From NCBI RefSeq assembly GCF_009914755.1, contig NC_060927.1: DNA of 64,000 nt; one strand, given 5' to 3'. Each line of letters starts with the position of its first letter. Within the stretch, counting starts at the first letter, position 1. This stretch comes from the human T2T-CHM13v2.0 reference genome, Homo sapiens. Positions 5,780 to 44,151 of this stretch are shown here, in pieces. The translations under genes were made by a program, and so were the position numbers. The notes beneath the pieces were generated by a model. It did no database searches. It saw only the letters and a list, made by a program, of their open reading frames with translations, and had not been told where the DNA came from.

Positions 5780-6683
<904 letters not shown>

Positions 6684-7654
6684 TTCCTGTCTTCTTATAT
6701 TAATAAGAAAAATAAAATGAAATAGTGGTAAAGTGTTGGGACGGCGAAAATTTTTGGGGATGGTATGGAGAGATAATGGGCGATGTTTCTCAGGGCTGCT
6801 TTGAGTGGGATTAGGGGCAGCGTGGGAACCTAGAGTGGGAGAGATTAAGCTGAAGGAAGATTTTGTGGTAATAGGTGATATTGTGGGGTTGTTAGAGGAA
6901 ACATTTGTCATTTAGAATTATTGATGATGGCTTGGATACAGTTTTGTATGAATTGAAAAACTAAACAGAATAAGAGAAGGAGAAAAACAGGTATTAAAGG
7001 ACTAAGAATTGGGAGGACCTAGGACATCTAATTAGAGAGTGTCTAAGGAGGTTCAGCATAGCCTTGCCAGCAAAGATTATTTATTTAAGAGTTAAGAGTG
7101 GCGGTTTGGGGATAGCATCAGGAGATATCAGCTGTGATGGCTTGGAGAAACAGTGTAAATCAGCAGTGTAAACAAGAGCAGGGCATGTATGAGTAGTTGA
7201 GAACGGTGAATAAAAGTGTGACTAGAGAGAAGATAGTAGGGATGACAAGTTTTTTTGGGGCACAGTCCAAGTTGCTCTGGTGTCTGGAATGAGACTGGGG
7301 CTTAATAAAAAGGAGCATCTATACAGGAGCTCAAATGGGCTGTACCTTGTAGCATTCCAAGGACAGGCCTGAATTCTGAGAAGGGAAAGTGGTAAAAGTA
7401 TTGTCCAGTCCTTTTTAAGTTGGTGGCTGAGCTTGGTGAGGTGTGTTTTTAAAAGACCATTAGTCTGTTCTACCTTTCCTGAAGACTGAGGACTGTAAGG
7501 GATATAAAGGTTTCACTGAATACTAAGAGCCTGAAAAAATGCTTGGCTGACTTGATTAATAAAGGCCGGTCTACTATTGGACTGTATAGAGGTGGGAAGG
7601 CCAAACTGAGGAATTATGTCTGACAGAAGGGAAGAAATGACCGTGGTGGCCTTC

Positions 7655-9265
7655 TTAGACCCTGTGGGAAATGCCTCTACCTATCCGGTGAAAGTGTCTA
7701 CCTAGACCAAGAGGTATTTTAGTTTCCTGACTCAGGGCACGTTGAGTAAAGCTAATTTGCCAGTCCTGGGTGGGGGCAAATCCCTGAGCTTGATGTGTAG
7801 GGAAGGGAGGGGGCCTGAAGAATCCCCGAGGAGTAGAGAATAGCAGATGGAACACTGAGAAGTTATTTCTTTGTGGATAGATTTCCACACTGGAAAGGAA
7901 ATGAGCGGTTCTAAGAGGCGGGCTAGTGGCTTGTACTATAGGATAGCCTGCCTTTGCTGGTGTGTGGCGATTAGGCCTGGTGGAACTGCCATCAATAAGT
8001 GTGATCAGGGTGAGAAACAGGAAAGAAGGAAATGTGGGGAAATGGGGTGAACATCAGGTGGATCAGAGAGATACAGTCACGAGGGTCAAGTGTGGTATCA
8101 GGAATAATGTGGGAGGCCGGATTGAAGTCTGGGCCATGAACAGTGGTAATTGTGGGAGACTCAACAAAGAGTTAGTACAGCTGAAGGAGCCGGGGAGCAG
8201 AAAGTATATGTGTCATCTGTAAGGAAGAAAATAGATTTTGGAAATTATGAGAGCTGTAGAGAGTGAGTTGAGCATAGTTTGTGATTTTAAGGTCCTCTAA
8301 AAGTATTAGGGCAGCAAGAGCCACTGCATGGAGACATAATGGCCAGCCTAAAACAGTAAGGTCAAGTTGTTTGGACAAAGAGGCTACAGGATGCAATCCT
8401 GGTCCTTGTGTAAGAATTTCGACTACACAGCGCTGCACTTTGGCTGTGTGTAGTGAAAAGGGTTGGGATGAGTCAGGGAGAGCTAGGGTGGGGGCAGCCT
8501 TTAAAGCTGTCTTCAAGGAACAGAAAGAGGAGTGGGGAAAGGATTTAGGATCTATGGGGTCAGCTAGGTTTCCTTATTTGAGTTTATATAATGGTTTTGT
8601 TAGGATGGCAAAACCAAGTATCTAAAGGCAAAAGTATCCAACCATGCCCAGGAAGGAAAGGAGTTGTTGTTTTGTAGCTGGGGTTGGGGTTTGAGAGATT
8701 AGTCGGACACGATCGGCAGGGAGAGCACGTGTGTTTTTATGAGAATTATGCTGAGATAGGTAACAGACAAGGAAGAAATTTGGGCTTGACTGAAGTCATA
8801 GGGACTGTCCGTGAAGTTTTGTGGCAGTGCAGCCCAGGTAATTTGCTGAGCTTGATTGGTGTCAGGGTCAGTCCAAGTGAAAACAAGGAGAGACTGGGAT
8901 GAAGGGTGCAAAGGAATAGTAAAGAAAGCATGTTTGAGATCCAGAACAGAATAATGAGTTGTGGAGGGAGGAATTGAGGATAGGAGAGTATATGCGTTTG
9001 GCACCATGAGGTAGATAGGCAAAACAATTTTGTTGATAAGGCATAGATCCTGAACTAACTTGTAAGGCTTGTCTGGTTTTAGGACAGGTAAAATGGGGGA
9101 ATTGTAAGGAGAGTTTATAGGCTTTAAAAGGCCATGCTGTAGCAGGCGAGTGATAACAGGCTTTAATCCTTTCAAAGCATGCTGTGGGATGGGATATTGA
9201 CATTGAGCGGGGTAAGGGGGATTAGGTTTTAATGAGATGGCAAGGGGTGCATGATCGGTCGCCAA
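7655..9265 (-). pseudogene. HERV-H pol remnants (RT, tether, part of IN)
   Basis: SPYNSPILPVLKPDKPYKLVQDL and YSVLDLKHAFFTIPL (8699-9265); APTLALPDSSQPF (8172-8516); QGFAPTQDWQI; frameshifts and stops. Confidence 0.9.
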
Positions 9266-9774
9266 GGAGGGAGTAGAGGTATCTTATACTTGTGGGTTAA
9301 GGTGGGTAGCAATGAGTTGTAGCTATAGTCCAGGAATAGTCAGGGAAGCAGATAATTTAGTTAAAGTGCCTCAGCCTAATAAGGGAACTGGGCAGGTGGG
9401 GATAACTAAAAAGGAGTGCTTAAAAGAGTATTGTCTAAGTTGGCATCAGAGTTGGGGAGTTTTAAGAGGTTTAGGAGCCTGGCTGTCAACACCCACAACA
9501 GTTATGGAGGCAAGGGAAACAGGCACTTGAAAAGAAGGTAATGTGGCATGGGTAGCCTCTGTATTGATTAAAAAGGGGATGGACTTACCCTCCACTGTGA
9601 GAATTACCTAGAGCATCTGTGATGGTCCTGTAGGCTTCCAAAGTGATTGATCAGGCAGTGTCAGTCTTCAGCTGCTAAGCCAAGAAGATCTGGGAAGGAG
9701 TCAGTCAGAGAGCCTTGGGCCAGAGTTCCAGGGGCTCTGGGAGTGGCTGCCAGGTGAGTTGAACAGTCCAATTT

Positions 9775-9969
9775 CTAGTGGGGTCCCACACAGATGGGAC
9801 ATGGCTTAGGAGGAATCCCGGGTTGTGGGCATTCCTTGGCCTGGTGGCCAGATTTCTGGCACTTGTAGCAAGCTCCTGGGGGAGGTGGTTCTGTAGGAAC
9901 ACCTGGCCACTGTGCTTTAGGCGTTTGGAAGTTCTTGTGTGCTGGAGATGTGGCTGGGGTTTGTCTCAC
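9775..9969 (-). pseudogene. HERV-H gag NC remnant
   Basis: CYKCQKSGHQAKEC...CPICVGPH zinc knuckles. Confidence 0.88.
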
Positions 9970-10977
9970 AGTGGAGGCAAGGAATTACAACTCAGAAATA
10001 TGTTGCTACTTGGTTGCCTCTACTCTATTATTGTACACCTTGAAGGTGAGGTTAATTAAGTCCTGTTGTGGGGTTTGAGGGCCATAATTTAATTTTCAGA
10101 GTTTTATTTAATGTCGGGAGCAGATTGGGTAATACAATGTATATTGAGAATAAGACATCCTTTTGACCTTTTAGGGTATAGGGCTGTAAAGCATCTCAGG
10201 GTTGCTGCCAAATGAGCCATGAACTAGGCTGGATTTTTATATTTGATGAAAAGGAGCCTAAACTCTATCTGATTTGGGATAAAGAAAAAGGAGCATTAAC
10301 CTTGACTATGCCTTTAGCTTCAGCCACCTTTTTAAGAGTAAATTGCTGGGCAGGTCGGGGAGGGCTAGTCATGGAACAAAACTGTAAGCCGGACGCGGTG
10401 TGAGGAGGGGAGGTGACAAAAGTATTATAGGGTGGAGGAGCAGAGGCTGAGGAAGAATTGGGGCCTAGCTTGGCCTGGTGAGGAGGGGAGAGGTCAGATT
10501 TTTCTGTAGAAAAGGAAGATTAGAAAGACTCAGTGATGCTTGGGGTTGGGATTGAGGGGGCAGCTGGGAGGGAAAGAAGGAAGATTTGGGATGAGTTGCA
10601 CTGGGAACAGACTAGGGAGGGACCAATGTGTAAAAGAATGCCTGGACGTCAGTCACCTCAGACCGTTTGCCCATTTTATGACAAGAATTATCTAGATCAT
10701 GTAGGATGGAAAAATTGAAAGTGCCATTTTCTGGCTATTTGGAACTACTGTCAAGTTTGTATTGGGGTCAAGCAGCATTGTGGAAGAAAATAAGGCATTT
10801 AGGTTTTAGGTCAGGTGTGAGTTGAAGAGGTTTTAGGTTTTTAAGAACACAGGCTAAGGGAGAAGAAGGGGGAATGGTGGGCAGAAGCTTACCCATAGTG
10901 AAGGCGGCAAGCCTAGAGAAAAGAGAGAGTAGAGACACAGAGAGAAGGGGTGGGGGGTTCTTGCCTTCCAGAAAAGC

Positions 10978-11155
10978 AGGAAAGGGGTTGGGGTGCAGAA
11001 ATAAAGGGTTGTGATACAGAGCTAAGAGGTCAGGGCACAGAAATAAGGGGTTGGGGTGCAGAGATAAGAGGTCAGGTCACAGAAATAAGGGATTGGGTCA
11101 CAGAGATAAGAGGTTGGGGCATGGAAATAAGGGATCGGGGCACAGAGATAAGAGA
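10978..11155. repeat. About 21-bp tandem array in the HERV-H leader
   Basis: About 8 units resembling GAGATAAGAGGTTGGGGCACA. Confidence 0.85.
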
Positions 11156-11689
11156 GGGTTCCTGCCCCTCCCCCAGAAAAACAGGACTTGCTGCTAAGGG
11201 TGAAGGAGAAGGGGTTGAGGGGTTCTTGCCCCTTCCCCCAGAAAAGCGGGACTTGCCACTAAGGGTGAAGGACCAAGGCAGGCGTCCCTGCGTGGTCTGA
11301 CACCTCTGAAACCTGGGTGAATAATCAGAGAGGCATCCCTGCAATGATTAAACACCAAGGAAAGGGTGTCTTCCCAAGTCCGTGACAGGCGCTGGAGTTG
11401 TGGGTCCATGGATAAAACGTGTCTCCTTTGTCTCTACCAGAAAATGAAAGGAATTGAAATTAAGAGAAGGGAGAGATTGAAGTGTGGTGCCAAGATTGAA
11501 AGGATAAAGAGGTTGAGGGATAGTGAAGGAGGTTGGAGAAGAGAGTAAAAAGAAGTCACTTACTGGATTTGAAATTGGTGAGATGTTTCTTGGGCTGGTC
11601 AGCCTGAGGACCTGAGGTTGTAGCTGGATCTTTCTCTCAGAGCAAAGAGCAGGAGGACAGGGGATGGATCTCCCAAGGGAGGTCCCCCG

Positions 11690-11707
11690 ATCCGAGTCAC
11701 GGCACCA
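11690..11707 (-). other. Primer-binding site, tRNA-His
   Basis: + strand ATCCGAGTCACGGCACCA matches the recalled 3' 18 nt of tRNA-His. Confidence 0.95.
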
Positions 11708-11709
11708 AA

Positions 11710-12060
11710 TTTCACATGGGTCCGTGCGAAGAGACCACCAAACAGGCTTTGTGTGAGCAATAAAGCTGTATATTTCACCTGGGTGCAGGTGGGCTGAGTC
11801 CGAAAAGTGTGAGCGAAGGGAGATAGGGGTGGGGCCATTTTATAGGATTTGGGTAGGTAAAGGAAAAAGGGGGGTTGTTCTCTGGCAGGCAGGAGTGGGG
11901 GTCACAAGGTGCTCAGTAGGGGAGCTTTTGAGCCAGGATGAGTCAGGAGAAGGTATTTCACAAGATAATGTCATCAGTTAAGGCAGGAACTGGCCATCTG
12001 GATGTGTACGTGCAGGTCACAGGGGATACGATGGCTTAGCTTGGGCTCAGAGGCCTGACA
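11710..12060 (-). promoter_or_regulatory. HERV-H 5' LTR (LTR7 promoter)
   Basis: Starts TGTCAGGCCTCTGAGCCCAAGC; TATAAAA at 11838-11844 (-); GGGGTGGGG GT-box at 11826-11834. Confidence 0.93.
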
Positions 12061-36357: not shown

Positions 36358-36612
36358 CCTTATCCAATGGTCATGCCACTCTATCTCTCCATGTAATTTC
36401 TCCTCCTGGCTGTCTGTAGCAACAGCCTTCTGAGGAACCTCACTCTGCCTTTCAAAATCCCTTCAAATTGTACCCTTCATCAGCAAAGTATTTAGCTCAA
36501 CATGTATGCCTCTGGGGGAACTCATCCACATGCCATTTAAGGATATTTCCAGCAACATCATCTTCACTACCCCAGGACAGCATTTTAGAGTGGATTACGT
36601 GCCTGCTGGATG

Positions 36613-37172
36613 TGTTGTTCTTGAGAGAGTTAGAGAAAACGCTACAGTTTGAGATGAATTAAGAGTCTGTTTATTTAGCCGGCGGCTAAGGAACGGCTAA
36701 CGTTTAAAGTTCTCTCGGCTTCGAAGAAGGGGCTAAGATTTTCTTTTATACTTTGGTTTAGAAAGGGGAGGGGGGTCTAGTTAAAACAATTTTACATAAG
36801 TAAAGTAGGCAAAAAAGTTAAAAGGATAAATTGTTACAGGAAAGTAAACAGTTCTAGGTCTAGGGCCTTTAAGACTATTATAAGGTGATAGACACGGGAC
36901 TTTGGGCGTTATCAATAGGATGAATTCCTGGGAACTGCGGTTATTGCTCACCACAGTATCTTATCAGTTAATTGCATTCTTCGATGTGCTGGGAGTCAGC
37001 TTGCACAAGTTAAGTCCTTGAGGAAGGGGCTGCCAGTGAAAGAGCCAAGAAATGGAGTCTGTCTGGCTCTCTTAGCTAAGGGAGAGTCAATTCAGGTGGA
37101 AACAAGGCTAGGTCACTAAAAGAAAGGGAGAGTCTAAGAACACGGTTAGTAAAAACAAGGTTAGGCATTACA
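36613..37172 (-). repeat. HERV-T 3' LTR (LTR6A-like)
   Basis: TGTAATGCCTAACCTTG...ACAACA, preceded by a PPT. Confidence 0.93.
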
Positions 37173-37196
37173 TTCCTCACTTGTGTTTTTGGGGAA

Positions 37197-38281
37197 TCAA
37201 ATCATTGATTCTTCAGTTATAAAAAGGGGGTTATATTGAGTCTTAAGATACATAAGTTTGACAGAAGCTATGCGTTGTTCTACAAACTTAAGGAACTAAT
37301 TTAATATACAAGGCCCAAAAATTAGACTTATTAGTAGGATGGGGAGGGGGTCTGGCTAATTTAGTAATTAGAGTGGTTAGCTATGGGTTCTAGTTGAACA
37401 TGTTTTGATACTAGGGGATGTTATTTTCTTGTTCTTGTTGGCGCTTGTCTAGATTTTCTTGCACTTTTTGGAGTGTATCTTTTATGACTAAGAATGGTGG
37501 AGGAACTATTAAATCAACTTTGTCAGGGTGTTTCTGGAACATAGGGTTACTTAGATCAGTTAAAGGTCTGATTGGCTTGGGTGGGCTTCATGAGACTAGG
37601 GTTTTTTTGGATGGTGAACATAGACTTAACATTAAATCCTGGGATATAAAATCTTAATCTTCATGCCATGCCATGATACTATTGAGTTGAATTGAGGTCA
37701 TGGACAGTTATAATAAGAGGATTACAATTTTTTCTAGTACATAATTTAGGATGAGAAGCATGACTTATGGAAAGAGTTGAAGATCTGGTTGATCTTTTAG
37801 AGTAGGTGGCTAAAGTTACACATGTCTAATCAGGGCAGAAAAACTGATAAGCATCTTGACAGCTAGCATCAGGGTGATTTCTAGGACAGAGGTAAAAGTC
37901 AATATTTTGGAGTCTTTTTTCTGCACTTTTGGAGCTTCTTCATTTAGTTTGGCTCTTGGAATGTCTGAATCTTGCTGCAAGGTCGACACTTCCTGCCCCT
38001 GGGACTGGAAGATTGTGTTGCTTTTCGTGGGTATGGGCTGGCTTTGGGAAAAGTACAAATAAATCAACTGCGAAGGAGACTTCCTTGGAGGTACTGGCCT
38101 TCTAAGTGGTGTTTGCAAATACACGTCCTGTTGTGAAAGAGGTGAGGAGAAAGGAGTAGGAAGGCACAGAGGACATAAAGCGCAAAAACAAATAAGTGAG
38201 GTAGATAAAAAGAATTAATCTAATGGCTTCACCTGACTTAGGTGCAGTTTTAAGGGGTCTGACTTAGGCCTGGAGACTTAT
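37197..38281 (-). pseudogene. HERV-T env remnant
   Basis: VRPLKTAPKSGEAIRLILFIYL..SYSFLLTSFTTGRVFANTT*..; TM part ENNIP*YQNMFN*NP*LTTLIT; ATG changed to ATA. Confidence 0.9.
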
Positions 38282-40108
38282 GTTTTTAGCTGGGCTCTGT
38301 TGGCTTTTTTGATGCGGGGGTGATGAATCTAAGCAGGAATGCCGTCTACTTTCAGAGCAGTTGGAGTCGTGAGGATGACGGTGTGAGGTCTTTTCTAAGC
38401 AGGAGTGAGTCTTTCTTTTTGGAACTTTTTAACAAACACTAGGTCTCCTGGCTGGAATGAATGGCAGGAGTGCACCTTACTTTAAGTAGGGCTAAAGGAA
38501 GGAGACTTACTTAATTTACACTGGTTTTTAAGATTTTGTAAGAGTGTTTTTTAGGGTGTGGTTCACGCGTTCTACTTGCCTGGAGCTCTGGGGTTGATAG
38601 GCACAATGGAGCTTCTATTGAATGTTTAACGCCTTACTGACTGACTGAGCTATAGGCGAGGTGAAGGCTGGTCTATTATCAGACTTTATGGCAGCAGGCA
38701 ACCTATATTGAGGGATGATTTCATTGCATAAAAACTTAACTACTGTGTTGGTGGTTTCGTTTTCGGTAGCAAATGCCTTAGTCTATCTGGAGAAGGTGTC
38801 TACTCGTACTAGAAGGTATTTGTACTTAGCCTGGTGTGGTTTTACTTCTGTAAAGTCAATTTCTTACTTTTTTCTTGGCGAGTTTTTTCAGAGACAGTGG
38901 CCAGGGCTGGGTTTAGGACTCTGTTTGGCATTTACATGAGCGCAGGTTGTGCACTGGAGAGCTGCTTAATCTGTTAGGCTTTGAAGACGGGGGATCTTAA
39001 AATGGCTCCGGAGGAGCTGAGGTAGCTTTGCTCTTTTTAAGTGGGTGGTAGACTGTAGGTGACTGATTAAAGTTTCTTTAATAGTTCAGGATATGAAGAG
39101 TCTAGAGTCAGGAAGAATCTACTAACTTTCCTGATTTTTATTGGCTCTGAGATCTGAAGCCAGTTTTTTGTTGTTGTTGAGTATATGGGATTGTCAGGCA
39201 GATCTGGCTGTGGAAAGGAGACTGTGGGCAGCAAGTTTAGAGGCGTGACTGAAAGTGGCGCTGTGACCTTAGCTGCTGAATCAGCTTTCTGGTTACTATG
39301 GGCAACAGCCTTGTTTTCTTTTTGATGTCCTTTGCAGTGGATCACAGCTACCTGCTGAGGTGAGTAGCCTGCTTTCCTGGTAGATGGCTTTATGTACATG
39401 CACAGTAGCAAAGGCGTACTTGCTGCCAGTGTAAATGTTAATACGTTTATTCTTAGTTTATCGGAGAGCCTGAGTGAGGGCGATCAATTCAGCCTTTTGT
39501 GCTGAGGTGTTCGCTGGTAAAGCTTGAGCTTACAACACGTCTGTCTTCATGGTAACAGCTGCACTGGCTTTTCCTACTTCCTGCTTGAGGAAGCGGCTAC
39601 TGTCTGTGAACACGGCGGCATCTGCCTTTTCCAGGGGCACATCTTGAAGATCAGATCGGCCAGTTTCGATAGTTTCTAACAGTTCTTGACAGTCATGAGC
39701 AGGAATAGTGCACTCTGAGTCAGGAAGTAGTGTAGCTGGATTGAAACACTTTGTGGGATAGAAAGTCAAACGAGGCTGATCTAACAGTAAACTTCGATAC
39801 TGCAAGATGCGAGCATTTGACATCTATTTGCCAGAAGCACTTCGTAGTAAGGTCTTTACAGCACGAGGAGCTGTAAGGGTTAAATTTTGGCTTAGAGTAA
39901 ACTTATCTTCTTGGGCTAGGCTTGCTGTAGCCTCTACAGCTCACAGACAACTTGGCCATCTAGAGGCCACAGGATGTAGCCTCTTAGATAAATAGGCCAC
40001 TGGGTGTCTTTAGGGTCTTAAAGCCTGAGTAAGCACCTCTTTAGCAACTCCTTGGCTTTTATGGAGATATTAGGGAGGGCTAAAGCAGGGGCTTCAGTTA
40101 ATGCTAAA
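38214..40108 (-). pseudogene. HERV-T pol remnant (tether, RNase H, IN)
   Basis: LALTEAPALALP; VAVIHCKGHQK; EIDFTEV; VDTFS; KLHCAYQPQSS; protease and RT core absent. Confidence 0.9.
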
Positions 40109-41470
40109 TTAATGGGCTATTTTATTCTGCACTTCTTGGATAGCCGCCACTAAGATTTTTGTTTGTCTTTTGAATGCTTTATCAGCGGCCTTTTCAGCTG
40201 CCTGTGTTGCTTGTTTTTGTTTTTTAGCCTTTTGATGGTCAAAAGCTTTTTGGGCTATTTGTAAAAGCTGACTGATATTTATTCTAGCAAATCTTTCTAG
40301 TTTTTGGAGTTTCTTTTTAATATCCGGGGCTGCCTGAGCCACAAATGCTAAATTAAAAGCACGGCTATTTTCCGGAGCTGCCGGGTCAAAAGGGGTGTAA
40401 ATCCAATAAGCCTCCTGGAGACGCTCTAAAAACTTTCTTGGTGACTTATCGGGCCTTTGGACAACTTCAGTGATCTTAGACAAGTTTATGGGTTTCTGAG
40501 CGGCTCTTTTAATACTTGCGAGGAGATAGCGGTGAAAATCGCCTAAAGCTCTCCTTCTACTTGAGGAATTTGGGTCCCAGTTAGGCCAGGTAGAGGGAAA
40601 GACCTCTTCAAGGAGGTCTCTAGTGTCTTCTTCCGGTCTATTGGCTGATGTGAGGAATTATTTTTGGCTTCTTTTCGGATACGTTCGTTTTTTTCAGAGG
40701 TGAAAAGGGTTAAAAGGAGCTGTTGGCAATCATCTTAGGTGGTCAGGTGAGTCCAGAGTACGGACTCTATTAGAGAGGTCAAAGCCTGGGGCTTCTCAGA
40801 GAAGGGAGGATTATGGGTTTTCTAATTATATAAGTCAGAAGTAGAAAAAGGGACATAAACTAAGAAGGGGGCTGAGCGCTCATTACCTGGAGGGACTTGT
40901 GCCTCTCTCAGTGGTAGTAGAGGGGCTACTTCTTCCTGCCACGGTCGCGATTGAGAGGCAATGGGTGGCGAGCCTACAGGGGACGTCGTCGAGGAGACAT
41001 GGGATAACTTTAAGGGAGCAGGCTGGTTGTAAGGCGGTGGGACTGGGTGAGGGAGACTCTCCTCTTCTTCAGAGGGAGGCAGTACAGGGGAAGCCGAACC
41101 GGCTGAGGGTCGAGGTGAAAACGCGGTCTGGCTTAGGAGGACCTTGGAGGTAGAATTCTGAATGGCGCATGAGCGGAGCTATGGAGGGGCTCCTGACTAA
41201 ACTTAGCTATTGATCAAGGTAGGGAAACTGATCAGGGTGGCTAGGAGTTTCAGTAAGAACCTGCCACACAGTTTGAACAATTGTGAGGTTCAACGACCCT
41301 TCAGGGGGCCACTTGACTTTAAACTTTGGCCATTTTATTTTGCACAGTGTCTGGAGTTTGCCTTTTTTAAGGCGGACTTTATAATCCTCTGAGAAACTGA
41401 GAGGAAAATTCTGCAGCACACATTGGAGAGGGCTTTAACTTTTACAAGGCTGGGAGGAAGTGTTTCTTAT
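40109..41470 (-). pseudogene. HERV-T gag remnant (MA to CA)
   Basis: WPPEGSLN, HPDQFPY, FLERLQEAY, AFVAQAAPDI; start ATGGGA changed to ATAAGA. Confidence 0.9.
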
Positions 41471-42799
41471 TTTTTTTTGAAGGCAATTTAATAAGATTTG
41501 AGCATAAATATTAAACTTAGCATGGACAGAGAAACTTATTTCTTAGGGGACTGGAGTATTGAAAGAACAGAATCAACATGACTAGAAAGAGCAGAAAAAC
41601 TACAACAGCTAATGCTACTTGCTACATTACTGTAGCTTTAAGATTGAGGGAGGAGGACTAGAGCCAGCCTGAGATCTTCTGGGTCAGTTTGATCTAGGCG
41701 TTCTTCTTCTTCTAGATCTGTACTTTAAATACTTTTGGTGTCTTTATGACTTAAAGGCAAATAGCTTAAACTTAGCTTTTTCTTTTAAGGGTTTAAGGAG
41801 TGAGAGCAGAGTCAAGTCATGGAGATGCTGAACTTGCTGTCACACCAGAAAATGAGACGTGCAGGGTAGAGGGCAGGGACGATGCAAAAAGGACTACTCA
41901 GATCATTTTTAAGATGGGAGAGTAGCCACAGAGGAACAGAGTAAGAATCTCAACGAAGTAAAGTAGTACGGGCATACGTTCTACTTCAGGGCACAGGAAA
42001 AGTTACAGAATGACAAAAGAAGTGAGCAAGGAAATCTGCATGGTGGCTGTTTTGAATTTACTACTGGTTTAGTTTAGAGGAGGTCTAATCACTTGGACGT
42101 GGGGTATGACAATCCAAATACTTACAACTTTCATGGTGCTAGAAATCTTAATCAGGCAAATGTTTTTCACACTTGTTCTTGTAACAACACTTGACTTGCT
42201 TCTGGCAGAAAAGACAGGACTGTGGTGGCCAGCCTAAATGATTGATAAGAAATTTAACCTCCTGTGACAAAAAATCAGCACTAAGGACTTTGAAGAAGTT
42301 TTTACTTAGATGTCTTGGGCAATATCAACGTCTTGACATGCAAAACTTTGACAACTACTAAACAAGAAAATAGACACTGAACAGAACAATCAACATAAAC
42401 AATTGACTTTAGGGCATGTAAACAGTTATGACAGTTTCTTCCTTTTTTTTTTTTTTTTAGACAGACAAGGGGAGGGGGTCCTGTGATGAGATCAGTCAGA
42501 TGCCTGCCTGGCCGCTCCCCCTGAGGGAACTTGGGCTCCTCTTAGCATTGGCAGGCCGGTATAAACTTCCGGCTCAGATCGAGATATGCCTGATGCTGCC
42601 TTAAGCCTTATGAGGTCGCCACGGAACCGCAGGTGAGGGCCCACTTGAACTCCGTAGCTTTCACCGTGGAGCTATAAACTGGAGGACAAGCGCAAGCCCT
42701 TGTCCTCCCTCATTCATTCATTATTCACACAGAGTTTATAACAGTTTTTTTTTTCTTTCTTTCTTGGAGATTCTTCAAGAAACTTGAACAAGAGAAAGA

Positions 42800-42807
42800 T
42801 GAGAGAT

Positions 42808-42843
<36 letters not shown>
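42800..42843. repeat. (GA)n tract in the HERV-T leader
   Basis: Seen directly. Confidence 0.9.
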
Positions 42844-42846
<3 letters not shown>

Positions 42847-43271
42847 CCGGTCTGCCAGAAACCAGGACTCAGTCCTCCAGCATCCTGGGATGTGGACTGA
42901 GTCAAGGGAGGGCCCCTGTCAGGGCCACTTCCCTCCTAGACAGAGACACAGACGTGCCTAACAGAAAACCAGGGCTCTACCTTCTAGCATCCTAGGGAAA
43001 TGGGCAGAGTCAAAAGAGGGACGTCGTCATCAGGGCCGCTTCCCTCTTACTAGAACTGAAGTCAAATCTGACCTACCTGACCTCGGGGTCACAAGTTGAG
43101 GACTCAGAGGTGGAATTTTTGTGGGCACCCACACGGTAGTCGATCTGCTCTCCTCCGGAAGACGGTCACCTTTCGGGGACCTGAAAATTTTTTTTCAGGT
43201 GGCGCCCCCATTACAAGCCGGCCGTCCTTCCGGGGGGGCCCGGAGCAAGCCCGGCTCTCGCCTGGTGGCGT

Positions 43272-43289
43272 TTCTCACTAGGGCCTCCA
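43272..43289 (-). other. Primer-binding site, tRNA-Thr
   Basis: TGGAGGCCCTAGTGAGAA vs recalled tRNA-Thr(TGT) complement TGGAGGCCCCAGCGAGA. Confidence 0.85.
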
Positions 43290-43291
43290 AA

Positions 43292-43843
43292 TGTTGTACT
43301 TGAGCGAGTTAGAGAAAATGCCACAATTTGAGACGAATTATGAGTCTTTATTTAGCCGGTGGCCAAGATACGGCTAATGCTTAAAGTTCTCTCAGCCCCG
43401 AAGAAGGGGCTAGATTTTCTTTTATACTTTAGTTTAGAAAGGGGAAAGGGGTCTAGTTAAAACAATTTTACAGAAGTAGGCAAAGAAGTTAAAAGGATAA
43501 ATTGTTACAGGAAAGTAAACAGTTCTAGGTCTAAGGGCTTTAAGACTATTACAAAGTGATAGACACGGGGCTTTAGGCATTATCAATCAGACGAATTCCT
43601 AGGAACTGTGGATATTGCTCGCCCCACAGTATCTTATCAGTTAATTGCATTCTTAGATGTGCTAAGAGTCAGCTTGCACAAGTTAAGTCCTTGAGGAAGG
43701 GGCTGCCAGTGAAAAAGCCAAGATAAAGTCTGTCTAGCTCTCTTAGCTAAAAGAAAGTCAATTCAGGTAGAAACAAGGCTAAGTGATTAAAAGAAAAGGA
43801 ACGTCTACGAACAAAGTTAATAAAAACAAGGTTAGGCTTTACA
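43292..43843 (-). repeat. HERV-T 5' LTR (LTR6A-like)
   Basis: Direct repeat of 36613-37172, adjacent to the PBS. Confidence 0.93.
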
Positions 43844-44151
43844 GATGGGGTCATCCTTATATTCAGCACAGTGTTTGTTCTGAAACTTCAATGGAGTGTT
43901 CCTAGTTTGATAACTTGGGCCATGCCAAATAAATTGAATTTCTCTTTCTTAACAACAGATGTTTGAATACAGCCCCGTGTCCCTCTCTGCTCCTTCCTGC
44001 CTTCCTCCTCTCCTCTTCCTTCCCTTCCTTTTCAAGAGCAGGCTTTGTAAAATTTCTTGAAAGCATCAGATAGTAAATATTTTAGAATTCATGGGCCATA
44101 CAGTCTCTTGTAGTAGTTACTCAACTCTGCCACCCATAGCATGAAAGCAGC

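What the first reader, a model, noticed from the sequence alone, without database searches (positions are those of the whole stretch)
37173..43291. HERV-T provirus carries a dense APOBEC3-type G>A hypermutation signature
Seen (proviral sense strand): Trp codons become stops at 41207 (DQ*), 39530 (VL*AQALP), 38864 (PRKK*EIDF), 38783 (DTFSR*TKAF), 38615 (IQ*KLHCAY) and 37411/37390/37381 (IP*YQNMFN*NP*L). Gly and Glu repeatedly become Arg or Lys (CKIKWPKFKVKWPP; LERFARIN). The gag start reads ATAAGA at 41470 and the env start reads ATAAGT at 38281. Known: GG>AG and GA>AA sense-strand changes are the APOBEC3G and A3F/H signatures and differ from CpG decay. Inference: this virus was inactivated before integration. 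The neighbouring HERV-H shows no such pattern, so it is not a regional mutation bias. Ancestral residues are from recalled gammaretroviral and HERV-T consensus.
Basis: partly seen in the sequence, partly recalled or inferred. Interest (0 to 1): 0.75.

Follow-up and report, generated by a model that had tools for sequence, protein, structure and literature searches.

The report
Hypermutated HERV-T provirus copied by duplication
An ancient retrovirus copy on human chromosome 3 was riddled with G-to-A changes by a host antiviral enzyme before it inserted, which is a known fate for this virus group, and the dead copy was later multiplied to fifteen places when the surrounding DNA was duplicated.

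Summary
The provirus (window 36613-43843, minus strand, 4-bp target-site duplication) carries 198 sense-strand G>A against 27 A>G, 39 C>T and 26 T>C when polarised by other natural HERV-T copies. Only 22 of the 198 are at CpG. Editing hits 53% of GG, 18% of GA and 5-6% of GC/GT sites, an APOBEC3G-type profile.

Editing before integration is supported. 175 of 198 edits are shared by at least 80% of 14 paralogous copies. Those paralogs share the host flanks, so they are segmental-duplication copies of one integration. An exact empty site survives on chr16.

The 5' LTR alone has 22 plus-strand C>T changes, mostly CC>CT. [quoted passage not shown]

The core finding is in print. Blanco-Melo et al. 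2017 catalogue this locus as HERV-T2 and describe that clade as derived from a hypermutated element. The possibly new parts are spread by duplication, the empty site, the LTR asymmetry, and two further, largely independently hypermutated HERV-T loci.

The parts
36609..36612 (-). Target-site duplication, copy next to the 3' LTR
   Evidence: The same 4 bases abut both LTR ends. The chr16 paralog has a single copy at the uninterrupted site.
36613..37172 (-). 3' LTR (560 bp). It carries 5 G>A changes that the 5' LTR lacks.
   Evidence: Direct repeats with a 6671-6677 bp offset. LTR alignment and counts.
37173..37190 (-). Purine-rich tract just upstream of the 3' LTR (presumed polypurine tract)
   Evidence: Read from the sequence. 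The function is inferred.
37173..38281 (-). env remnant of about 369 codons with many stops, including the three Trp-derived stops at 37381-37413
   Evidence: No Pfam match at E<=0.001. The published ancestral env is 631 codons (PMC5388530, passage).
38285..40108 (-). pol remnant: RNase H (about 39374-39619), integrase core (about 38591-38881) and MLV-type integrase C-terminal domain (about 38299-38463). Protease and reverse transcriptase are absent. A 199-bp deletion private to this copy lies near 38468.
   Evidence: Pfam with stops read as X. Deletion junctions from BLAST against other copies.
40109..41470 (-). gag: matrix (Gag_MA, about 41216-41395) and capsid (Gag_p30, about 40238-40618), interrupted by stops
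   Evidence: Pfam E 1.3e-10 and 1.2e-31. Stop at 41207-41209.
41471..43271 (-). Long leader shared with other HERV-T copies. G>A is lower next to the PBS.
   Evidence: Other copies align continuously across it. 10 of 106 G changed in the first 415 nt.
43272..43289 (-). Presumed 18-nt primer-binding site, two bases after the LTR end
   Evidence: Position read. The match to tRNA-Thr was not tested.
43292..43843 (-). 5' LTR (552 bp) with 22 plus-strand C>T changes confined to U3. They are absent from the 3' LTR and from both LTRs of other proviruses.
43844..43847 (-). Target-site duplication, copy next to the 5' LTR

Best explanation
This is one HERV-T provirus of the published T2 clade. Its DNA was deaminated by a virion-borne APOBEC3G-type cytidine deaminase during the single round of reverse transcription that produced it.

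Steps shown
- About one fifth of the conserved G positions on the sense strand read A.
- The changes sit mainly at GG, less at GA, and rarely at CpG.
- The edits predate every duplication of the locus.
- The 5' LTR alone carries CC>CT changes in U3, and the 3' LTR alone carries a few extra G>A.
- The insertion site is intact and empty in a chr16 paralog.
- All 14 close copies in this genome share the host flanks.

Steps inferred
- The enzyme was the A3G orthologue of a hominoid ancestor, packaged in the producer cell.
- Minus-strand cDNA was edited while single-stranded, giving sense-strand G>A.
- Plus-strand strong-stop DNA was edited before the minus strand copied it. That fixes C>T in the 5' LTR only.
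- The genome lacked protease and reverse transcriptase, so it travelled in particles made by a helper virus.
- It entered the germ line inside a duplicon whose provirus-free copy lies in 16p13.3. Host segmental duplication, not reinfection, then carried it to 15 loci on chromosomes 3, 4, 7, 8, 11 and 12.
For: Polarised counts: G>A 198, A>G 27, C>T 39, T>C 26; 22 of 198 at CpG.

Context: GG 120/228, GA 50/277, GC 14/240, GT 12/246. A Hypermut-style test of GRD against control sites gives OR 8.2, p = 4e-35.

Natural references: each of 15 natural loci used alone as reference gives the same result.

Sharing: 175 of 198 edits are present in at least 80% of 14 paralogs. Twenty edits are private, and only 3 of those are in GG context.

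Flanks: the 3'-side flank matches at 14 of 14 paralog loci. The 5'-side flank matches in full at 7 of 14 and in part at 7 of 14.

Empty site: chr16 reads straight across the site.

LTR asymmetry: 5'-only C>T 22 against 3'-only 2, binomial p = 4e-5. By preceding base the counts are CC 16/45, TC 4/36, AC 2/30 and GC 0/22; one site is at CpG. The same T's occur in the 5' LTRs of 3 of 3 paralogs examined (of 14), with C in their 3' LTRs.

Literature: for HIV-1, a passage in PMC5461918 states that plus-strand changes are restricted to the PBS and the U3 of the 5' LTR, where plus-strand DNA is transiently single-stranded.

No further viral spread: no hit lies between 87% and 92% identity among the matches listed (40 of 72 first-look candidates were scored), so no independent integration carries this edit set.

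Neighbour control: negative.
Against: There is no significant monotonic PBS-to-PPT gradient. The Spearman coefficient is 0.25 with p = 0.40 over 500-nt bins, and values run 13-29%. Only the LTRs (4/70 and 9/70) and the PBS-proximal 415 nt (10/106) are lower.

The GA component (18%, and 37% at GAG) exceeds background. One enzyme with pure GG preference is therefore too simple.

Edits overlap slightly more than chance with two other hypermutated copies: 47 against 39.8 expected and 62 against 52.3 expected, z = 2.6 and 3.2. A minority of edits could be inherited.

Polarity rests on what most other copies read, projected onto this copy by BLAST. Insertions relative to this copy are ignored.

Orthologues in other primates were not examined. 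LTR pairs were read for only 3 of 14 paralogs.
Confidence: 0.9

Rival explanations
1. Most of the G>A changes were inherited. An earlier hypermutated genome kept spreading by complementation in trans, as published for the HERV-T2 clade, and this locus is one of its descendants rather than the edited molecule itself.
For: [quoted passage not shown] This locus is listed as T2. It shares its pol deletion with other copies. There is a slight excess overlap of edits with two other hypermutated copies.
Against: Four other copies that match the paper's human T2 rows by chromosome, strand and similar position (chr2:124.1M, chr3:167.1M and chr6:87.7M), or that share the T2-type LTR (chr5:96.2M), keep G at these sites. 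They are not hypermutated themselves. Of 193 G>A sites covered by all three hypermutated copies, 95 are unique to this lineage. Overlaps are close to what shared hot spots predict. All 14 copies that carry the edit set share the host flanks. The LTR asymmetry can only come from the last reverse transcription.
Confidence: 0.07
2. The pattern arose after integration, through CpG decay or a regional or strand-biased mutation process such as transcription- or replication-linked asymmetry.
For: The sense strand is G-poor here (GC skew +0.17 to +0.30). The neighbouring ERV is also G-poor, with 13.6% G.
Against: Only 22 of 198 changes are at CpG. Changes since duplication are symmetric. The neighbouring ERV shows no copy-specific G>A. 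The two LTRs of the same element, 6.7 kb apart, show opposite-strand signatures.
Confidence: 0.01
3. The G>A hypermutation came from reverse-transcriptase misincorporation under a skewed nucleotide pool, with no deaminase involved.
For: Sense-strand G>A with some GA context is also the recalled signature of pool-imbalance hypermutation. This comes from recall, not from a call.
Against: The GG preference is 53% against 18% for GA. [quoted passage not shown]
Confidence: 0.02

Closest known systems
HERV-T2 clade of Blanco-Melo, Gifford and Bieniasz, eLife 2017 (PMC5388530; passages and source-data table read)
   Same: [quoted passage not shown] That is 7231 bp, the same length as found here. They ran Hypermut on 49 proviruses and state that T2 derives from a hypermutated element.
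   Different: They propose expansion by complementation in trans. Here the 15 copies of this lineage in T2T-CHM13 share host flanks, so they are duplication copies. Other copies that match their T2 rows are not hypermutated in my screen. The figure supplement with their per-provirus result is not held as text, so I could not see which proviruses they scored as hypermutated.
APOBEC3-edited chimpanzee and macaque gammaretroviruses (Perez-Caballero, Soll, Bieniasz 2008, PMC2564838; passages read)
   Same: Endogenous gammaretroviruses with GG>AG excess after CpG exclusion, and stops created from Trp codons.
   Different: In the passages read, that paper found no context bias in plus-strand C>T, and no passage compared the two LTRs; the search term 'LTRs' had 0 occurrences. 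Here the 5' LTR has a CC>CT cluster.
APOBEC3G editing of vif-deficient HIV-1 in culture, including rare plus-strand C>T in the 5' U3 and PBS (Yu et al. 2004, recalled; paper not held; the statement was seen as a passage in PMC5461918)
   Same: Minus-strand editing gives sense-strand GG>AG. Plus-strand edits are limited to the 5' LTR U3.
   Different: HIV-1 shows steep gradients peaking 5' of each polypurine tract (PMC1635257, abstract and passages). This fossil shows a plateau. It has no shared C>T in the PBS-proximal 415 nt.
Interchromosomal core duplicon (IAR/DA, '7E' duplications) of Mohajeri et al. 2016 (PMC5088589; passages and Supplemental Table 4 read)
   Same: Fifteen copies on chromosomes 3, 4, 7, 8, 11, 12 and 16, with 16p13.3 as the ancestral locus. 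Their listed bands (3p12.3, 4p16, 8p23.1, 11p15.4, 11q13, 12p13.31) match bands holding provirus copies. My provirus-free copy is in 16p13.3.
   Different: Their coordinates are GRCh37, and I could not show overlap with the stretch that carries the provirus. The terms 'retrovir', LTR6B and HERVS71 do not occur in their main text or the searched supplements.

Membership tests
APOBEC3-hypermutated provirus (A3G type) | Sense-strand G>A far exceeds A>G and C>T | tested here: met
   198 against 27 and 39. The same holds against each of 15 natural reference loci.
APOBEC3-hypermutated provirus (A3G type) | Edited G is followed by G (or A), not by C or T | tested here: met
   GG 53%, GA 18%, GC 6%, GT 5%. 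GRD against control gives OR 8.2, p = 4e-35.
APOBEC3-hypermutated provirus (A3G type) | Signal survives exclusion of CpG | tested here: met
   176 of 198 are non-CpG. The context tables were computed on non-CpG sites.
APOBEC3-hypermutated provirus (A3G type) | Edits were present at integration (shared by all descendants or orthologues) | tested here: met
   175 of 198 are shared by at least 80% of 14 duplication copies. Orthologues in other primates could not be examined with these tools.
APOBEC3-hypermutated provirus (A3G type) | Editing rises from the PBS towards the polypurine tract | tested here: inconclusive
   LTRs 6% and 13%, PBS-proximal stretch 9%, then 13-29% with no trend; Spearman p = 0.40.
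APOBEC3-hypermutated provirus (A3G type) | Identity of the deaminase | not testable with these tools
   It is inferred only from dinucleotide preference on both strands.
HERV-T (HERVS71), clade T2 | Gammaretrovirus-type gag and pol domains | tested here: met
   Gag_MA, Gag_p30, RNase_H, rve and MLVIN_C.
HERV-T (HERVS71), clade T2 | Listed as HERV-T2 in the published catalogue | tested here: met
   A source-data row with matching chromosome, strand and length.
HERV-T (HERVS71), clade T2 | Primer-binding site complementary to tRNA-Thr; LTR6B-type LTR | not tested
   No tRNA comparison was made and no repeat library is on hand. Both names are recalled or taken from the paper.
Segmental-duplication copies of one integration | Host flanks homologous on both sides of every copy | tested here: met
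   3'-side flank at 14 of 14 loci. 5'-side flank at 14 of 14 loci, 7 of them with a junction deletion of about 450 bp.
Segmental-duplication copies of one integration | A paralog with the unoccupied target site | tested here: met
   chr16:5.187 Mb reads straight across the site with one copy of the 4-bp target.

The most novel reading that the evidence does not exclude
[quoted passage not shown] That effect is described for HIV-1 in culture. My literature searches found no report of it for an endogenous retrovirus.

Two consequences follow.
- LTR-divergence dating of hypermutated proviruses is biased. Here it gives 23.6 My against 12.4 My once edit-type differences are set aside.
- Part of the published 'HERV-T2 expansion' is segmental duplication of a single dead provirus. 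Convergent hot-spot editing in at least three lineages can pull unrelated proviruses together in trees.
Probability: 0.55. Interest if true: 0.5.

Novelty: already known. Interest (0 to 1): 0.35.

Why it matters
APOBEC3 hypermutation of endogenous retroviruses, HERV-T included, is established. The core finding therefore adds a well-documented example rather than a discovery. Three side results could matter to specialists.

- Counts of 'proviruses' in a clade can be inflated by host segmental duplication. Here 15 copies trace to one integration.
- LTR-LTR divergence, the standard clock for proviruses, is distorted when the two LTRs were edited differently before integration.
- The provirus is absent from the 16p13.3 copy and present in all derived copies. 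That makes it a dated marker inside a duplicon family tied to 8p23.1 rearrangements.

Tried and rejected
Natural copies served as references instead.
Smaller stretches were fetched instead, so LTR pairs were read for only 3 of 14 paralogs and 2 independent proviruses.
- The PBS-to-PPT gradient test gave no trend.
- The idea that this lineage and the two other hypermutated copies share one nested editing event was rejected. The sharing pattern is not nested (AAg 26, AgA 39, gAA 5), and overlaps are near the expectation for independent events.
- Pfam found nothing in env at E<=0.001, and nothing in the p12-like ORF, the 97-aa RNase H ORF fragment or the 132-aa env ORF at E<=0.01.
- Yu et al. 2004 is not held.
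- Searches for LTR6B, HERVS71 or HERV-T together with segmental duplication found no paper linking them.
- I could not place the provirus inside the published GRCh37 duplicon coordinates.
Full report
ANATOMY

- Direct repeats offset by 6671-6677 bp mark the LTRs.
- Reading the sequence places the 3' LTR at 36613-37172 and the 5' LTR at 43292-43843.
- A presumed 18-nt primer-binding site lies two bases after the 5' LTR, and a purine-rich tract lies before the 3' LTR.
- The same four bases abut both ends.

Pfam finds Gag_MA and Gag_p30 in open pieces of gag. With stops read as X it finds RNase_H, the integrase core and the MLV-type integrase C-terminal domain. No protease or reverse transcriptase is found, and env gives no match.

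BLAST against other copies shows that the gag-pol deletion junction is shared with five other proviruses. Two proviruses hold more pol. The genome was therefore already helper-dependent.

THE OBSERVATION

In the non-hypermutated independent copies that cover each site, a Trp codon is the commonest reading: 12/12, 6/6, 2/4, 3/4, 3/4, 2/3, 3/3 and 3/3.

The Lys/Arg residues in the two quoted peptides are Glu/Gly in most of 12 other copies. Of 55 TGG triplets conserved elsewhere, 44 read as stop-type triplets here.

The env start reading is confirmed. The gag start is ambiguous, because other copies vary there.

IS IT HYPERMUTATION?

I built no consensus. I used natural copies from the same genome as references.

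Pairwise, against each of 15 independent loci:
- Reference-G/provirus-A sites number 140-264, against 37-94 for the reverse class. C/T differences are about symmetric.
- With CpG set aside, 45-57% of GG, 25-39% of GA, 7-16% of GC and 6-14% of GT sites differ in the G>A direction.
- Odds ratios are 4.0-8.8. The reverse direction shows no context effect.

Counting only sites where at least 75% of at least three independent copies agree gives G>A 198, A>G 27, C>T 39, T>C 26 and transversions 51. At 797 sites G is kept. 22 of the 198 are at CpG.

By the following base in the other copies:
- GG 120/228, GA 50/277, GC 14/240, GT 12/246.
- GGT, GGG and GGA are at 57-69%. GGC is at 28%.

This is the APOBEC3G-type profile described for other primate gammaretroviruses (PMC2564838, passages).

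The same screen was applied to each of the 14 other lineages.
- Two more are hypermutated: chr3:149.16 Mb and chr19:23.3 Mb.
- Twelve are clean. The method therefore does not call everything hypermutated.

A 2-kb sample of the neighbouring ERV was also tested. Window 6300-11900, minus strand, holds protease, RT, RNase H, integrase and zinc-knuckle matches. Its family-wide G content is only 13.6%, yet it shows G>A 12 against A>G 10 and no context bias.

WHEN DID IT HAPPEN?

Fourteen copies in T2T-CHM13 are 92-95% identical to this one.
- The 3'-side host flank matches next to 14 of 14 of them.
- The 5'-side flank matches at 14 of 14, seven of them with a shared junction deletion of about 450 bp.

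They are therefore duplication copies of one integration.

A sixteenth copy of the flanks, at chr16:5.187 Mb, reads straight through the insertion point with a single copy of the 4-bp target.

Of the 198 G>A sites, 175 are A in at least 80% of the paralogs. Twenty are private, and only 3 of those are in GG context. Differences that arose after duplication are symmetric.

Among the matches listed (40 of 72 first-look candidates were scored), nothing lies between 87% and 92% identity. No independent integration carrying this edit set was seen, so the edited genome did not go on replicating as a virus.

THE LTRs

Both LTRs were compared with seven LTRs of five independent proviruses.
- The 5' LTR alone has 22 C>T and the 3' LTR alone has 2 (binomial p = 4e-5).
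- By preceding base the 22 are CC 16/45, TC 4/36, AC 2/30 and GC 0/22. One is at CpG. All lie in U3.
- The 3' LTR alone has 5 G>A against 2 in the 5' LTR. Three G>A are shared.
- The same T's are in the 5' LTRs, and C's in the 3' LTRs, of 3 of 3 paralogs read (of 14).

[quoted passage not shown] Its U3 end stays single-stranded longest after the second jump. C>U changes made there are fixed in the 5' LTR only.

A passage in PMC5461918 states that in HIV-1 such plus-strand changes are restricted to the PBS and the 5' LTR U3. I recall the primary source as Yu et al. 2004, which is not held. [quoted passage not shown]

Because each replication cycle makes the LTRs identical again, this asymmetry dates the editing to the final cycle.

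It also inflates the LTR clock.
- This provirus has 57/550 LTR differences (23.6 My at 2.2e-9 per site per year).
- Without the 27 edit-type differences it has 30/550 (12.4 My).
- Two unedited proviruses have 27/552 and 30/557.

GRADIENT

Editing is 4/70 in the 5' LTR, 9/70 in the 3' LTR and 10/106 in the first 415 nt after the PBS. It then runs at 13-29% per 500 nt without a trend (Spearman 0.25, p = 0.40). This is weaker than the HIV-1 gradients (PMC1635257). Near-saturation of preferred sites, or several plus-strand start points, could explain it. Neither was tested.

RELATION TO PRINT

Blanco-Melo et al. 2017 (PMC5388530) list this locus as HERV-T2. [quoted passage not shown]

My data agree that this lineage is hypermutated. 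They add the following.
- Its 15 human copies arose by host duplication.
- Other copies that match their human T2 rows by chromosome, strand and position (chr2, chr3:167 Mb and chr6 in T2T-CHM13) are not hypermutated.
- Edits shared with the two other hypermutated copies are close to the number expected from independent hits on the same hot spots: 47 against 39.8, 62 against 52.3 and 30 against 25.5.
- A neighbour-joining tree changes when G/A differences are ignored. The two other edited copies stop grouping with this lineage, and the chr19:39.0 Mb copy becomes its sister (no support values were computed).

I could not see their figure supplement, so I cannot say which proviruses they scored.

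Mohajeri et al. 2016 (PMC5088589) describe a core duplicon with 15 copies on chromosomes 3, 4, 7, 8, 11, 12 and 16. It is ancestral at 16p13.3, was first copied to 4p16.1 about 19 Mya, and spread before 11-15 Mya. The bands in their table match the provirus loci.

If the provirus-bearing stretch belongs to that block, integration falls between those dates. This is an inference, because their coordinates are GRCh37 and I could not show overlap.

VERDICT

The core is already published, down to this locus being catalogued in a clade described as hypermutated. What may be new is the route of amplification, the empty site, the plus-strand signature in the 5' LTR with its effect on dating, and the evidence for at least three separate editing events in HERV-T.

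Noticed in passing
window 38466-38470: This copy has a private deletion of about 199 bp in the integrase region. All 14 paralogs, and the independent copies that cover the site, hold the extra stretch.
   Followed up: partly
L016/L032/L043 (chr3:149.16 Mb) and L025/L036 (chr19:23.3 Mb): Two other HERV-T proviruses are also GG-biased G>A hypermutated (113 and 109 G>A; OR 3.1 and 4.7). The events are largely independent of this one.
   Followed up: partly
paralog loci on chr4 (4.03 and 9.04 Mb), chr7 (7.11 Mb) and chr8 (7.45, 11.60, 12.27, 12.79 Mb): Seven of 14 paralogs match the 5'-side flank only from query base 353 onwards, about 450 bp closer to the provirus than expected. This looks like a shared deletion across the 5' LTR/flank junction and marks a subgroup of the duplications. 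Six of the seven also fall in one branch of the neighbour-joining tree, which includes the chr11:67.9 Mb copy as well; the chr4:4.03 Mb copy sits beside that branch.
   Followed up: no
window 6300-11900, minus strand: A second ERV with zinc-knuckle, protease, RT, RNase H and integrase matches lies here. It has only 13.6% G on its sense strand in the 2-kb sample, and more than 1200 first-look candidates genome-wide. Its nearest copies (94-97%) are at chr4:4.00 Mb, chr4:9.64 Mb and chr3:128.6 Mb, so it rides the same duplications. The name HERV-H was not verified.
   Followed up: partly
G000 chr8:6900903-6901524 and 6903216-6903705: Two fragments of the 5'-side flank lie here with no provirus hit nearby. 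This may be a rearranged or provirus-free piece of the duplicon.
   Followed up: no
window 42810-42860 and 42440-42462: A (CT)n run and a long A-run sit inside the proviral leader. Whether other copies share them was not examined.
   Followed up: no
window 36613-43843 relative to the annotation: The provirus lies antisense inside the span of the lncRNA LINC02018, with no exon in it (gene table supplied with the finding).
   Followed up: no
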